Assembly: GCF_000018105.1 (NCBI RefSeq) | Contig: NC_009925.1 | Location: 4,770,001-4,802,000, forward strand | Length of the DNA: 32,000 nt | DNA from: Acaryochloris marina MBIC11017 | GTDB lineage: Bacteria > Cyanobacteriota > Cyanobacteriia > Thermosynechococcales > Thermosynechococcaceae | Direction: 5' to 3' | In this document: piece after piece, positions 11,294 through 14,200 of the stretch | Layout of the letters: every line of letters starts with the position of its first letter | Position numbering within the stretch: the first letter of the stretch is position 1 | Program-made: the position numbers and the translations under genes | Notes under the pieces: model-generated | Databases searched by the model: none | Seen by the model: the letters and a program-made list of their open reading frames with translations, nothing else | Told to the model about the DNA's origin: nothing

Positions 11294-14200
11294 ATGACTG
11301 AGCGAAAGTTCAAATACGATGTCTTTCTGAGTCATAGCAGTCAAGATAAACCGACTGTTTTGGAACTGGCTGAGAAGTTGCGGGCTGACGGGCTTCGGGT
11401 TTGGTTAGACGATTGGATGATTCAACCTGGAGATTTAATCCCAGCCAAGATTGCCGAAGGGTTGGAGCAATCACACACTTTAGTCTTATGTATGTCCCAA
11501 AATGCCTTTGGCTCAGACTGGGTCACCCTCGAACATCAGACAATCTTGTTTAGGGACCCCATAAATAAGGAGAGACGATTTATCCCTATATTGTTGGACG
11601 AAGAGCCTATTAATGATAGCTTGCGGCCATTTGCCCATATTGATTGGAGGCAACCAACACTTGAACAATACAACCGTATACTCAAAGCATGTCAACCTCC
11701 CGCGCCAGTAGACAAATCTCCAAACCAAGAACAGACGACTCTGCATGAGAATGATATTCTTAACCCTACTACTACTGGGGTTACAGACGCGAGATTAGAG
11801 CGATTTTTAGCCGGACACACTGCTAACGTCTGGAGTGTTGCCCTCACCGCTGATGGCCGCCGTGCTCTCTCTGGCTCTGCTGACAAAACCGTCAAATTCT
11901 GGGACCTCGACTCCGGCCAATGCCTGCAAACCCTCGAAGGACACGACTCTGACGTCGGGAGTATCGCCCTCACCCCCGATGGCCGCCGCGCCCTTTCTGG
12001 CTCTGCTGACAAAACCATCAAACTCTGGGACCTTGACTCCGGGCAATGCCTCCAAACCCTTGAAGGACATATTGCTTACGTCGAGAGCATTGCCCTCTCC
12101 GCCGATGGTCGTCGTGCTCTTTCTGGCTCTGCTGACAAAACCGTCAAACTCTGGGACCTTAACTCCGGGAAATGCCTCCAAACTCTCCAAGGACACACCG
12201 ATGACGTCAGTAGTGTCGCCCTCTCCGCCGATGGTCACCGTGCTCTTTCTGGCTCTGCTGACAAAACCGTCAAACTCTGGGACCTTGACTCCGGGCAATG
12301 TCTCCAAAACCTGCAAGGACACACTGCTAACGTCTGGAGTGTCGCCCTCGACGCCGATGGTCGCCGTGCCCTTTCCGGCTCTTCTGACCGAACCGTTAAA
12401 CTCTGGGACCTTAACTCCGGGCAATGCATCCAAACCCTCCGAGGGCACACCGCTAGCATCGAGAGTGTCGCCCTCACCACTGATGGCTGCTGCGCCCTCT
12501 CTGGTTCCTCTGACCGAACCGTCAAATTCTGGGACCTTGACTCCGGGCAATGCCTGCAAACCCTTGAAGGACACACCGCTATCGTCGGGAGCGTCGCCCT
12601 CGCCACTGGTGGCTGCCGCGCCGTCTCCGGCTCTGCTGACCGAATTGTCAAACTCTGGGACCTCGACTCCGGCCAATGCCTGCAAACCCTCGAAGGACAC
12701 ACCGCTAACGTCTGGAGCGTCGCCCTCGCCGCCGATGGCTGCCGCGCCGTCTCCGGCTCTGCTGACCAAACCATCAGACTTTGGGACCTTGACTCTGGCC
12801 AATGCCTGCAAACCCTCGAAGGACACACCGCTAACGTCTGGAGCGTCGCCCTCACTGCCGATGGCTGCCGCGCCGTCTCCAGCTCTGCTGACCAAACCAT
12901 CAGACTTTGGGACCTTGACTCTGGTCAATGCCTGCAAACCCTTGAAGGACACACTTCTGACGTTGGGAGTATCGTCCTCACCCCCGATGGCTGCCGCGCC
13001 CTCTCCGGTTCCTCTGACCGAACAGTCAAACTCTGGGACCTTGACTCTGGGCAATGCCTGCAAACTCTTGAAGGACACATCGCTTATGTCTGGAGCGTCA
13101 CCCTCTCCGTCGATGGTCGCCGCGCCCTCTCCGGTTCCTCTGACCGAACAGTCAAACTCTGGGACCTTGACTCTGGTCAATGCCTGCAAACCCTTGAAGG
13201 ACACACCGCTAACGTCGGGAGCGTTGCCTTCACCATCGATGGCCACCGCGCCCTCTCTGGCTCTGCAGACCGAACAGTCAAACTCTGGGACCTTGACTCC
13301 GGGCAATGTCTGCAAACCCTTGAAGGACATACCGCTAACGTCGGGAGTGTTGCTCTCACCGCTGATGGCTGTCACGCCCTCTCCGGCTCTGATGATCAGA
13401 CAGTCAAACTCTGGGACCTCGACTCTGGCCAATGCCTAAAATCTTTCGAGGGACACACCGATTCTGTCAGAAGCGTAATTTTGCAACCGTGCTGCTATTA
13501 TGCTGCGGCTCGGAACGGTCGGCTATTGGGATGGTCGACGGAAGTCCAACCAACGTCAGTACAGAGTTCTGCTGCGGCCCGTTATACCAATGCCAAGGTA
13601 GTCTTAGTGGGGGAAAGTGGAGTAGGCAAAACGGGGTTGGCCCTCCGGCTCACCCAAAATCGATTTGAAGCCACCATTTCCACCGATGCCCACTGGGCTA
13701 CTCAATTACGACTCCCTCACGATAATAGCCCGGACGGAATTGATCGGGAAATTTGGCTATGGGATTTTGCCGGGCAAGCCGACTATCGCCTGATTCACCA
13801 ACTGTTTATGGATGAAACGGCCCTGGCGGTCCTGGTCTTTAATCCCCAAAGCGAAGACCCGTTTGAAGGGCTGAGTCAATGGGATCGAGAGATTACTCGG
13901 GCTGCACAACGCCCCTTTAAGAAGCTATTGGTAGCGGGACGCTGCGATCGAGGCCGATTAATGGTGAGCCAGAGCCGCATTCAACAGTTTGCCCAAAACC
14001 ACAGTTTTGTTCAATACTTGGAAACCAGTGCTCTCAGTGGTCATGGCTGTCAGGATTTAAAAACCGCCATAATCGATGAAATTGACTGGGACAGCATTCC
14101 CCACACCTCATCTCCCCGCATTTTCAAACTCCTAAAAGATGAAATTCTCCAGCTCCGAGACCAGGGATTTGTCCTGTTTCGCATCAGTGAACTGAAGCAG

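What the first reader, a model, noticed from the sequence alone, without database searches (positions are those of the whole stretch)
11813..13450. WD40 blades encoded by 13 near-identical 126-bp tandem units, with differences confined to a few codons (a hypervariable recognition surface?)
Seen: the period is exactly 126 nt and the WDLDSGQCLQTLEGH block is almost invariant. Units 8 and 9 differ at only 5/126 nt. Amino-acid changes cluster at unit positions 3,4,5,7 (just after GH: TAN.W / DSD.G / IAY.E / TDD.S / TAS.E / TAI.G), at 12-13 and 16-17 (around DG: TA..RR / TP..RR / SA..HR / TT..CC / AA..CR) and at 23 and 25 (GS-A/S/D-D-K/R/Q). Established knowledge: in canonical WD40 propellers the residues after GH (D-A loop) and the GSxDxT B-C loop form the top, ligand-binding face. 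Fungal NLR-like HNWD/HET-E genes show the same pattern of highly conserved repeats that undergo concerted evolution with diversifying selection at a few surface positions. Inference: intragenic recombination or gene conversion is homogenising the scaffold while the contact residues are shuffled. This would give a rapidly evolvable sensor, and blade number probably varies between strains. It is also an assembly hazard.
Basis: partly seen in the sequence, partly recalled or inferred. Interest (0 to 1): 0.75.

Follow-up and report, generated by a model that had tools for sequence, protein, structure and literature searches.

The report
Hypervariable WD40 sensor of bacterial Roco protein
The 126-bp repeats are real and encode 13 of the 14 blades of a double WD40 propeller, the likely ligand sensor of an uncharacterised Acaryochloris marina TIR–Roc-COR GTPase–nuclease protein that resembles an immune receptor; this kind of fast-evolving repeat sensor is already known from fungi and other cyanobacteria.

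Summary
In detail: 13 in-frame 126-nt units (11813-13450) and a degenerate 14th lie in one 1449-aa gene (11294-15643). "Near-identical" is overstated. Units average 82% nucleotide identity, and synonymous divergence between them is about 0.5. The protein is TIR – two seven-bladed WD40 propellers – Roc GTPase – COR – zinc ribbon – DUF4365 nuclease. It belongs to a large, patchily distributed, stand-alone bacterial family. They are the same codons that are positively selected in fungal HNWD genes, and they are hypervariable across the whole family: Nostoc orthologues are 21-36% identical there against about 90% elsewhere. The other four (12,13,16,17) lie in a bottom-face loop that varies little in most relatives. 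Units cluster by lineage, are mosaic, and their number varies across the family. Within the window alone, positive selection is not demonstrable, and a second A. marina strain has an identical array. That agreement supports the repeat count, but short-read assemblies all break inside the array. Verdict: a new member of a known kind, of moderate interest.

The parts
11294..15643 (+). Whole gene, 1449 aa: TIR - 14 WD40 blades - Roc - COR - Zn ribbon - DUF4365
   Evidence: ORF; domains; same 1449-aa gene called in A. marina MBIC10699, 1 nt different
11321..11680 (+). TIR domain (aa 10-129) with the putative catalytic Glu80 in SDWVTLE
   Evidence: Pfam TIR_2 E=1.1e-27; nearest solved relatives are AbTIR NAD(+) hydrolase, PdTIR, TcpB and Cat1; E80 invariant in 46 relatives
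11681..11812 (+). Low-confidence linker (aa 138-168) followed by a short strand (aa 171-173) just before the first GH, probably the closing strand of propeller 1
   Evidence: AlphaFold pLDDT <50 at aa 138-168 and strand E171-173; the closing role is inferred from WD40 topology
11813..12694 (+). Repeat units 1-7 = first seven-bladed propeller
   Evidence: TRF; Pfam WD40 x13; AlphaFold blades mostly pLDDT >90 with a break at aa 460-467, the end of unit 7; Foldseek top hit 2YMU
12695..13450 (+). Repeat units 8-13 = first six blades of the second propeller; unit 13 is the most divergent full unit
13451..13540 (+). Degenerate 14th unit (GHTDSVRSVILQPCCYYAAARNGRLLGWS), three strands completing the second propeller
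   Evidence: strands at residues 6-29 of the C-terminal model with pLDDT about 85; strands 725-748 in the N-terminal model
13580..14083 (+). Roc/Ras-like GTPase (aa 763-930): P-loop GESGVGKT 773, DFAGQ 824, GRCD 882, ETSA 910
   Evidence: Pfam Ras E=1.5e-24 and Roc E=5.5e-18; motifs; these residues invariant in 56 relatives
14084..14950 (+). COR-like region (aa ~931-1219), assigned by fold only
   Evidence: AlphaFold pLDDT 83, pTM 0.79; Foldseek alignments of about 530 columns to Roc-COR structures 6HLU, 3DPU, 4WNR, LRRK1/2; no Pfam COR hit
14966..15061 (+). Four-cysteine zinc ribbon (CPHC 1225, CQNC 1253)
   Evidence: all four Cys invariant in the family; weak Pfam Zn_ribbon_Elf1 hit
15209..15502 (+). 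DUF4365 PD-(D/E)xK nuclease domain (aa 1306-1403) with DHEIEFK at 1325
   Evidence: Pfam DUF4365 E=1.7e-11; PADLOC Aga_REase hit; PDB 9QBQ/9QBP DUF4365 proteins; D/E/K conserved in the family

Best explanation
The array encodes 13 regular blades, and a degenerate 14th follows. Together they form a tandem pair of seven-bladed WD40 propellers. This pair is the probable ligand-sensing module of a single-gene, NLR-like conflict or defence protein of Acaryochloris marina. In this protein a Roc-COR (Roco-type) GTPase takes the place of the STAND ATPase. Two predicted effector domains are attached: an N-terminal NADase-type TIR and a C-terminal DUF4365 PD-(D/E)xK nuclease.

Evolution (shown). The array was built in this lineage from a single blade type. 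[quoted passage not shown] The blade scaffold is under strong purifying selection. Amino-acid change concentrates at the top-face hotspot positions (R1-2, R1, D-1, D+1 and the d-a loop). In this lineage it also concentrates in the bottom-face a-b loop. Across the family the top-face positions evolve under diversifying selection, and array size changes, with modes at 7 and 13/14 units.

Function (inferred, not shown). A ligand, such as a phage or other invader protein or a modified host protein, binds the propeller face. This would switch or oligomerise the Roc-COR module. The TIR domains would then be brought together to cleave NAD+, and the nuclease would be released, causing growth arrest or death of the infected cell.
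For: Anatomy. Two 7-bladed propellers: the best PDB sequence match is 2YMU (E=1e-187); the AlphaFold model breaks exactly after unit 7; Foldseek puts 2YMU first (E=8e-71, TM 0.71), followed by double propellers such as Apaf-1. Roc-COR by fold. All catalytic motifs are intact and conserved. TIR relatives are NADases. DUF4365 is the collateral nuclease of short-Argonaute systems (PMC10810196). Lineage-specific arrays: 13/13 window units have their nearest neighbour in the same protein, and there is no positional orthology to L001, L011 or L046; 72/84 across other arrays. Exchange between units: the two halves of the unit give uncorrelated distance matrices (rho 0.10; units 10 and 11 differ by 2 nt in the last 75 but 16 in the first 51); PHI-type test p=0.0015, and synonymous-site incompatibility rises with distance from 0.45 to 0.89; tract test units 10-11 p=0.0005 and units 3-4 p=0.001; adjacency effect by Mantel test p=0.009. 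Array size varies. Stand-alone gene with patchy phyletic spread. The concept was predicted earlier for AP-GTPase/COR conflict systems (PMC8195603).
Against: No experiment bears on function, and no known defence-system model matches the whole protein; PADLOC gives domain-level hits only. In the window itself top-face dN/dS is about 1, so relaxed constraint cannot be excluded locally. Only 2 of 78 unit pairs show individually significant shared tracts, and recurrent C/T changes could inflate the incompatibility measure. dS of about 0.5 between units means homogenisation is weak or old. The array is identical in a second strain. The immediate neighbours are ordinary-looking genes (PspA-like, OmpA-domain, TPR), not an obvious defence island. 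COR is assigned by a predicted fold with modest TM-scores (0.34-0.59).
Confidence: 0.68

Rival explanations
1. One-off amplification followed by ordinary divergence. A single blade was amplified once. The units have since drifted apart by point mutation under purifying selection on the fold, with merely relaxed constraint on surface loops. There is no continuing exchange and no positive selection in this gene.
For: The number of unit pairs with tract-test p<0.05 equals the chance expectation (4 against 3.9). The array is identical in two strains. Bottom-face a-b loop variation with omega 0.76 looks like relaxation.
Against: A star-like burst predicts similar distances for all pairs, but the observed range is 5-36 with an adjacency effect (p=0.009). 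The halves of the units have discordant relationships. PHI-type test p=0.0015. Two tracts survive or nearly survive Bonferroni correction. In sister arrays with dS of 0.1, top-face dN is already 0.5, and close Nostoc orthologues differ in hotspots, unit number and duplicated units.
Confidence: 0.2
2. The protein is a housekeeping or regulatory Roco GTPase scaffold rather than an immune or conflict receptor. On this reading the WD40 propellers bind stable cellular partners, and the TIR and DUF4365 domains serve adaptor or DNA-metabolism roles.
For: It sits in a chromosomal location among ordinary genes, with no mobile-element genes next to it. Many WD40 propellers are scaffolds. No defence phenotype is known.
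Against: It combines two domains that act as death effectors in proven defence systems, with catalytic residues conserved. The ligand face is hypervariable between close orthologues. The family is patchy across at least 10 phyla, with no conserved neighbours. No orthologue between 68% and 90% identity exists in any sequenced relative. Unit number varies, including a 4-unit allele.
Confidence: 0.1
3. The 13-copy array is an assembly artefact: units were collapsed, expanded or mis-ordered.
For: All short-read (Logan) contigs stop inside the array, at 11927 and 13282. Exact repeats of up to 58 nt occur between units.
Against: The array is in frame with no indels. Units differ by 5-36 nt, so they can be ordered. 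The complete genome of a different strain (MBIC10699) is 3-4% diverged upstream of 9992 and lacks the 5769-6752 segment, yet has a base-for-base identical array. 13+1 blades fit the 2x7 architecture, and seven unrelated genomes have 13/14 units.
Confidence: 0.02
4. Targeted hypermutation, for example by a diversity-generating retroelement, creates the variable codons.
For: DGRs diversify ligand-binding proteins in cyanobacteria and are linked to conflict systems.
Against: Substitutions are not adenine-specific: C>T 82, and only 28 of 191 are from A. No reverse transcriptase or template repeat is in the window. Variation is between paralogous units, not between a template and a variable repeat.
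Confidence: 0.01

Closest known systems
Fungal HNWD / HET-D / HET-E NACHT-WD40 allorecognition genes (Paoletti 2007 PMC1805685; Chevanne 2010 PMC2873952)
   Same: 42-residue WD40 units of very high internal identity. Units group by species or gene rather than by position. Four diversifying codons lie in two pairs around a conserved residue, equivalent to positions 5/7 and 23/25 here, on the interaction face. Repeat number is unstable. A death effector is fused to a nucleotide switch. A Podospora NACHT-WD protein is among the best matches to this array (61% identity).
   Different: The central switch here is a Roc-COR GTPase, not NACHT. The effectors are TIR plus DUF4365, not HET. No paralogue shares the blade type, so no between-locus exchange is seen. 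There is no RIP. The host is a prokaryote. A second variable patch lies on the bottom-face a-b loop.
WRAP propellers, e.g. Nostoc punctiforme Npun_R6612 (PDB 2YMU; Pereira & Lupas 2022 PMC9218822)
   Same: A cyanobacterial array of 14 WD40 blades that folds as two seven-bladed propellers. It was amplified from one blade independently in each lineage and has a proposed innate-immunity role. 2YMU is the best sequence and fold match.
   Different: Npun_R6612 has about 10 point mutations and no synonymous differences, whereas here dS is about 0.5. There the host protein is a STAND ATPase with the propeller at the C-terminus and the TIR on a partner protein. Here the propeller is internal, and the TIR, the GTPase and the nuclease are all in one polypeptide.
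Highly-Repetitive (HR) prokaryotic WD40 proteins (Hu et al. 2017 PMC5587647)
   Same: It meets their criterion (internal identity at least 0.7; here 0.75), has many repeats and multiple propellers, and its predicted hotspot sites are the variable ones.
   Different: That survey is descriptive. This specific architecture and its selection pattern were not analysed there.
Roco proteins (C. tepidum Roco, M. barkeri Roco2, LRRK1/2) and the predicted AP-GTPase-COR conflict systems (Wauters 2019 PMC6337361; Kaur 2021 PMC8195603)
   Same: A Roc GTPase with intact G motifs is followed by a COR-like fold. A repeat domain lies N-terminal to Roc and a variable domain C-terminal, as predicted for bacterial AP-GTPase systems.
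   Different: The 2019 review states that all prokaryotic Roco proteins known then were LRR-Roc-COR. Here the repeat is WD40, not LRR, with an extra N-terminal TIR and a C-terminal Zn-ribbon plus DUF4365. There is no kinase.
Short-Argonaute nuclease systems (DUF4365-APAZ, SPARDA type) and TIR NADase defence proteins
   Same: The same effector domains are present. DUF4365 degrades DNA nonspecifically once its sensor is triggered (PMC10810196). TIR needs oligomerisation to cleave NAD+ (bioRxiv 10.1101/2023.09.23.559129, abstract listed).
   Different: The sensor here is a protein-binding propeller and the switch is a GTPase, not a guide-loaded Argonaute. Both effectors are on one chain.

Membership tests
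WD40 beta-propeller | Repeats of about 40 residues with GH and WD dipeptides and the D-H-S/T-W tetrad, each forming a four-stranded blade | tested here: met
   13 Pfam WD40 hits, E=2e-151. H2, S20/S22, D24 and W30 are invariant in all 13 units. AlphaFold gives four strands per unit.
Highly-Repetitive WD40 (Hu 2017) | Internal repeat identity of at least 0.7 | tested here: met
   Mean pairwise unit identity is 0.75 at the amino-acid level; criterion from PMC5587647.
WRAP-type recently amplified propeller (Lupas group) | [quoted passage not shown] | tested here: met
   Identity 0.75. 13/13 nearest neighbours lie within the array. Best outside proteins are at most 62% identical.
WRAP-type recently amplified propeller (Lupas group) | Very recent amplification with essentially no synonymous differences, as in Npun_R6612 | tested here: not met
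   Pooled dS between units is 0.50, and 74 of 126 sites are polymorphic.
WRAP-type recently amplified propeller (Lupas group) | Fourteen blades folding as two 7-bladed propellers | tested here: met
   The prediction breaks at aa 460-467. 2YMU is the top Foldseek hit, TM 0.71. This rests on a prediction, not a solved structure.
WRAP-type recently amplified propeller (Lupas group) | Host protein is a STAND ATPase | tested here: not met
   The nucleotide switch is Ras/Roc-like with a COR-like fold. No NACHT or NB-ARC hit.
Fungal HNWD-type NLR | NACHT NTPase plus an N-terminal HET (or other) death domain | tested here: not met
   Pfam finds TIR, Ras/Roc and DUF4365 only.
Fungal HNWD-type NLR | Repeats grouping by gene or species instead of by position (concerted evolution) | tested here: met
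   There is no positional orthology (diagonal identity equals off-diagonal).
Fungal HNWD-type NLR | Exchange of repeats between paralogous loci | tested here: not met
   No other protein has units more than 62% identical. The second WD40 gene in the window is not DNA-repetitive. Caveat: close self-hits appear to be hidden in that database.
Fungal HNWD-type NLR | Positive diversifying selection at four top-face codons | tested here: inconclusive
   Family level: omega is 1.8-5.8 in the four youngest arrays, and Nostoc orthologues are 21-36% against 90% identical. Window alone: omega 1.37, or 0.84 against array-wide dS. No recombination-aware site model was run.
Roco (Roc-COR) GTPases | Ras-like Roc domain with G1-G5 motifs | tested here: met
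   Pfam Roc E=5.5e-18. GESGVGKT, DFAGQ, GRCD and ETSA are present and invariant in the family.
Roco (Roc-COR) GTPases | COR domain immediately C-terminal to Roc | tested here: met
   Met by predicted fold only: Foldseek alignments of about 530 columns to 6HLU, 3DPU and 4WNR, E 1e-14 to 1e-11. There is no Pfam COR hit.
Roco (Roc-COR) GTPases | GTP binding and hydrolysis; COR-mediated dimerisation | not testable with these tools
   Needs biochemistry.
Enzymatic (NADase) TIR domains | TIR fold with a conserved catalytic glutamate | tested here: met
   TIR_2 E=1.1e-27. E80 in SDWVTLE is invariant in 46 relatives. The nearest structures include AbTIR NAD(+) hydrolase. Assignment of E80 as the catalytic residue rests on my own knowledge of the SxWCxxE motif of plant and bacterial TIRs.
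Enzymatic (NADase) TIR domains | NAD+ cleavage activity | not testable with these tools
   Needs an assay.
DUF4365 / PD-(D/E)xK nucleases | Pfam DUF4365 match with a D...(E/Q)xK catalytic motif | tested here: met
   E=1.7e-11. DHEIEFK at 1325. D, E and K are conserved in 56 relatives. PDB 9QBQ matches at E=5e-6.
Catalogued anti-phage defence systems (PADLOC 2.0) | Full-length match to a system model | tested here: not met
   Only domain-level hits: TIR to PDC-S66 and ThsB, WD40 to HEAT-ARM_XIII, DUF4365 to Aga_REase.
DGR variable-repeat targets | Adenine-specific substitutions and a nearby reverse transcriptase plus template repeat | tested here: not met

The most novel reading that the evidence does not exclude
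This gene would represent a widespread, experimentally untouched class of single-polypeptide bacterial immune receptors. In this class a Roc-COR GTPase, the LRRK2-type switch, does the job of the NLR STAND ATPase. It would couple a rapidly diversifying WD40 sensor to two death effectors, a TIR NADase and a DUF4365 nuclease. In the A. marina lineage the sensor has doubled to two propellers and gained a second variable surface in the bottom-face a-b loops. That could allow two ligands to be read, or one ligand to be clamped between the propellers. If so, immune switching would be an ancestral Roco function.
Probability: 0.3. Interest if true: 0.7.

Novelty: new member of a known kind. Interest (0 to 1): 0.42.

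Why it matters
The repeat array itself is a textbook-like example of a known phenomenon, so it adds a case rather than a concept. Three things give it some value.

1. The bacterial family varies at exactly the same four codons as the fungal HNWD genes. The evidence is replicated over about 20 independently homogenised arrays and a set of close Nostoc orthologues. This points to a general rule for how WD40 sensors diversify.

2. The array sits in a large, uncharacterised TIR–WD40–Roc-COR–DUF4365 family. That family is a concrete, testable candidate for a Roco-GTPase-based defence system, and is relevant to the evolutionary origin of LRRK-type proteins.

3. Practically, short-read assemblies always break in this gene, and annotation pipelines call a spurious antisense gene inside it.

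Tried and rejected
1. DGR or targeted mutagenesis: rejected. Substitutions are not A-specific and there is no reverse transcriptase.
2. GC-biased gene conversion as the homogeniser: the window's array has higher GC3 (0.61 against 0.50), but family-wide GC3 is lower in arrays in 44 of 53 loci. Rejected as a general signature.
3. Whole-propeller (offset-7) duplication as the origin of 14 blades: no array shows an offset-7 peak. The window peaks at offset 8 (units 1-3 resemble 9-11), and L011 and L045 at offset 6.
4. Conserved operon partners: none of the window's neighbours recurs in the 80 loci.
5. Strain-level variation: only one other spanning assembly exists, and it is identical in the array. 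The strains are nearly identical from 9993 onward, so the test says nothing about diversification.
6. Close orthologues: none between 68% and 90% identity in the protein database or in the species-representative genomes. The exact and near-exact copies seem to be hidden from the homology search, so absence claims above 90% identity are not possible.
7. Alignment A2 (full-length relatives) mis-paired the second propeller with the relatives' Roc domain, so I discarded it and replaced it with the trimmed A3.
8. Model coordinates are not exposed, so solvent exposure and face assignment could not be computed geometrically. The mapping rests on predicted strands plus published topology.
9. The second WD40 gene in the window is not a DNA tandem array.
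10. Literature searches found no paper on this architecture or on Roc-COR in anti-phage defence.
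Full report
OBSERVATION. Tandem Repeats Finder finds a single array in the window, at 11813-13460: period 126, 13.1 copies, 84% matches, no indels, score 1964. 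It lies in frame within one ORF, 11294-15643 (+), 1449 aa. Cutting at GH gives 13 clean 42-residue units, followed by a degenerate 14th, GHTDSVRSVILQPCCYYAAARNGRLLGWS. Units 8 and 9 differ at 5 of 126 nt. The WDLDSGQCLQTLEGH block is nearly invariant. Amino-acid entropy peaks at positions 5, 7, 12, 13, 16, 23 and 25, then 3, 4 and 42. "Near-identical" is too strong, however. Mean pairwise nucleotide identity is 81.6% (5-36 differences). 74 of 126 sites are polymorphic, and Nei-Gojobori dS between units is 0.50. Synonymous differences occur all along the unit; only the amino-acid changes are concentrated.

WHAT THE GENE IS. Pfam finds a TIR_2 domain (aa 10-129, E=1e-27), 13 WD40 repeats, a Ras/Roc GTPase (E=1e-24 and 5e-18) and a C-terminal DUF4365 (E=2e-11). 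An AlphaFold model of aa 720-1449, built on 56 relatives, is confident (pLDDT 83, pTM 0.79). Its best structural matches are Roc-COR proteins: C. tepidum Roco 6HLU/3DPU, M. barkeri Roco2 4WNR and LRRK1/2, with alignments of about 530 columns. The region after the GTPase is therefore COR-like. All catalytic signatures are present: TIR SDWVTLE (E80), P-loop GESGVGKT, DFAGQ, GRCD, ETSA, a four-Cys zinc ribbon, and the nuclease motif DHEIEFK. They are conserved across the family. The TIR domain's nearest solved relatives are bacterial NADase-type TIRs. DUF4365 is the PD-(D/E)xK nuclease that degrades DNA nonspecifically in short-Argonaute systems (PMC10810196; PDB 9QBQ).

SOURCE AND FAMILY. Neighbouring proteins are exact matches to Acaryochloris marina. 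The C-terminal part has at least 1975 relatives in the protein database, mostly about 1100 aa long (TIR + WD40 + Roc + DUF4365). They come from Acidobacteriota, Planctomycetota, Cyanobacteria, Chloroflexota, Verrucomicrobiota, Firmicutes and others. The closest is only 68% identical. None of the window's neighbours recurs next to the gene in the 80 loci. It is a stand-alone gene with a patchy distribution.

STRUCTURE OF THE ARRAY AND MAPPING OF VARIABLE SITES. The best PDB sequence match to the array is 2YMU (E=1e-187), deposited as a 'highly repetitive propeller structure'. It appears to be the 14-blade Nostoc punctiforme WRAP domain, which folds as two seven-bladed propellers (PMC9218822). 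The AlphaFold model of aa 1-770 has blades mostly above pLDDT 90 and a low-confidence break at aa 460-467, the end of unit 7. Foldseek again ranks 2YMU first (E=8e-71, TM 0.71), followed by double propellers such as Apaf-1. In unit coordinates the strands are a 6-11, b 17-22, c 26-31 and d 36-42.

By the topology and hotspot rules of Wu et al. 2012, position 7 is R1, position 5 is R1-2 and position 23 is D-1. These are the three canonical top-face hotspots. Positions 3-4 (d-a loop) and 25 (b-c loop) are also on the top face. Positions 12, 13, 16 and 17 belong to the a-b loop and the start of strand b, which is the bottom face.

SELECTION. Split by face, it is 1.37 for the top face (0.84 against array-wide dS) and 0.76 for the a-b loop. 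On its own this cannot separate diversifying selection from relaxed constraint. The family supplies replication.

- In 12 other homogeneous arrays the same positions (3, 4, 5, 7, 8, 23, 25, 42) carry the entropy, whereas 12-17 do not (Spearman 0.62 with the window profile).
- Over 20 arrays analysed at the DNA level, top-face dN is at least 0.42 whatever the dS. The four youngest arrays therefore give omega of 2.9, 5.8, 2.3 and 1.8, while the scaffold stays near 0.2.
- Six Nostoc/Nostocales orthologues have Roc-COR-DUF4365 parts 91-97% identical. The four with seven units are 21-36% identical at the top-face positions but 89-92% identical at the other blade positions.
- In the same Nostoc set, one orthologue has 4 units instead of 7, and two carry a pair of identical adjacent units.

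These are the same four codons, in two pairs around a conserved residue, that are positively selected in the fungal HNWD genes (PMC1805685).

HOW THE ARRAY EVOLVES. All 13 window units have their nearest neighbour inside the window's own array. There is no positional orthology with the 13/14-unit arrays of L001, L011 or L046: diagonal identity equals off-diagonal identity. Each lineage has its own scaffold signature. Units are mosaic. Distances computed on codons 1-17 and on codons 18-42 are uncorrelated (rho 0.10). For example, units 10 and 11 differ at 2 of the last 75 nt but at 16 of the first 51, while unit 10 shares its first half with unit 2.

- A PHI-type permutation test gives p=0.0015.
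- 69% of purely synonymous site pairs fail the four-gamete test, rising with distance from 0.45 to 0.89.
- A GENECONV-style test singles out the adjacent pairs 10-11 (p=0.0005) and 3-4 (p=0.001). The total number of nominally significant pairs is not above chance.
- Adjacent units are more alike than distant ones (19.1 against 24.0 differences; Mantel p=0.009).
- The last full unit is the most divergent.
- Units 1-3 are colinear with units 9-11 in their top-face cassettes: TANVW / xSDVG..TP / IAYVx.

Together this indicates lineage-specific amplification, block duplication and local exchange by unequal crossing-over or conversion. With dS near 0.5, however, scaffold identity is maintained chiefly by purifying selection on the protein. 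Array size in the family has modes at 7 units (22 of the 66 loci whose ORF is not cut by a contig end, within the 80 loci fetched) and 13/14 units (7 loci), with occasional 4 or 9. On a neighbour-joining tree of the C-terminal domain, the 13/14-unit forms are scattered among forms with 7 or fewer units. Only the window and L001 pair together, which suggests repeated doubling. The tree has no support values. No other protein carries units more than about 62% identical to these, so there is no sign of exchange between loci as in fungi.

ASSEMBLY AND STRAINS. The complete genome of A. marina MBIC10699 (AP026075.1) has the same 1449-aa gene with one nucleotide difference (14666 G>C, V1125L). Its array is base-for-base identical. 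That strain differs from the window by 3-4% upstream of 9992 and lacks the 5769-6752 segment, so it is a different strain. Its agreement supports the count of 13+1, provided the two assemblies are independent. From 9993 onward the two strains are at least 99.98% identical, so this comparison says nothing about diversification rates. Every short-read (Logan) contig ends inside the array, at 11927 from the 5' side and at 13282 from the 3' side. The longest exact inter-unit repeat is 58 nt.

ALTERNATIVES. A DGR is excluded. Biased gene conversion is not supported family-wide. A one-off amplification with neutral loop drift remains possible for this lineage alone (about 0.2). A non-immune scaffold role is unlikely given the effector domains, the hypervariable ligand face and the patchy distribution (about 0.1).

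MECHANISM. Shown: the domain order, the intact motifs, the predicted 7+7 propeller architecture, and the evolutionary pattern. Inferred: ligand binding on the propeller face switches or oligomerises the Roc-COR module. Roco proteins dimerise through COR and Roc (PMC6337361). That would bring the TIR domains together; TIR NADases require oligomerisation (abstract of 10.1101/2023.09.23.559129). It would also activate the nuclease, giving abortive infection. Kaur et al. 2021 predicted AP-GTPase-COR conflict systems with fast-evolving N-terminal LRRs and variable C-terminal effectors. This family is the WD40/TIR/DUF4365 version. The 2019 Roco review still listed only LRR-Roc-COR in prokaryotes. 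I found no experimental work on this architecture.

VERDICT. It needs three corrections: the bottom-face loop, purifying selection rather than homogenisation as the main cause of scaffold identity, and no demonstrable positive selection or strain variation in this gene itself. This is a new member of a well-described kind of system. The moderate interest comes mainly from the uncharacterised Roco-type receptor family that carries the array.

Noticed in passing
window 1843-3171 (+) and 3158-5755 (+): Two overlapping genes: an AAA_35 ATPase (with an HTH_VMAP-M9 hit in the MBIC10699 annotation) and an AAA_35 + WD40 protein. This is a second NTPase/WD40 module 5.5 kb upstream, reminiscent of the paired STAND genes described for WRAP loci. 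Its WD40 repeats are not a DNA-level tandem array.
   Followed up: partly
window 1-9992 versus 9993-32000: Against A. marina MBIC10699, divergence is 3-4% up to 9992 (inside the OmpA-domain gene 9105-10646). It then drops to at most 0.02% for the remaining 22 kb. This is a sharp recombination or replacement breakpoint 1.3 kb upstream of the TIR-WD40-Roc gene.
   Followed up: partly
window 5769-6752: A segment of about 1 kb carries a TacA-like antitoxin and a GNAT (TacT-like) acetyltransferase. It is present in the window and in several short-read assemblies but absent from MBIC10699, so it is a toxin-antitoxin indel between strains.
   Followed up: partly
window 11807-13432 (-) and 11835-13439 (+, other frame): Stop-free ORFs of 541 and 534 aa run through the array in other frames. 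The MBIC10699 annotation calls a 522-aa gene antisense inside the array (L081 11157-12725). These are most likely artefacts of the repeat's periodic composition.
   Followed up: no
window 27614-27700 (-): A c-di-GMP-I riboswitch (54 bits, E=4e-8) lies on the minus strand, 39 nt beyond the stop of the plus-strand sugar transferase gene 26106-27575. Only a 28-aa ORF (27513-27599) lies downstream of it on its own strand. It may control a small ORF or antisense transcription into the exopolysaccharide gene.
   Followed up: partly
L031 (Nostoc sp. DedQUE02) and L027 (Nostocales LEGE 12452): These orthologues have only 4 or 3 WD40 units, and L027 also lacks the TIR, although their C-terminal parts are 91-95% identical to the 7-unit relatives. 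They may be decaying alleles, or blades that assemble in trans.
   Followed up: no
window positions 16-17 of the units (e.g. 12488-12493, 12614-12616): The a-b loop residue 16 alternates between R, H and C through single C/T or G/A changes (CGC/TGC/CAC). Cysteine occurs in units 6-10 and 13, and unit 6 has Cys-Cys. This bottom-face variation is marked only here and in L001 and L060; its meaning is unknown.
   Followed up: partly
window 15684-21775 (-): Three consecutive large TPR-repeat proteins (643, 713 and 659 aa by ORF) lie immediately downstream, convergent with the gene. They are not conserved next to relatives of the gene.
   Followed up: no
window 902-1354 (-): A DUF559 (Vsr-like endonuclease fold) protein lies upstream of the AAA_35 pair.
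   Followed up: no
database behaviour: The MBIC10699 copy of the protein (1 aa different) is on record in the contig index, but the homology search did not return it, and the genome scan returned no Acaryochloris locus. Copies in the same 90% cluster as the window's protein seem to be hidden, which limits any claim of absence for very close relatives.
   Followed up: partly
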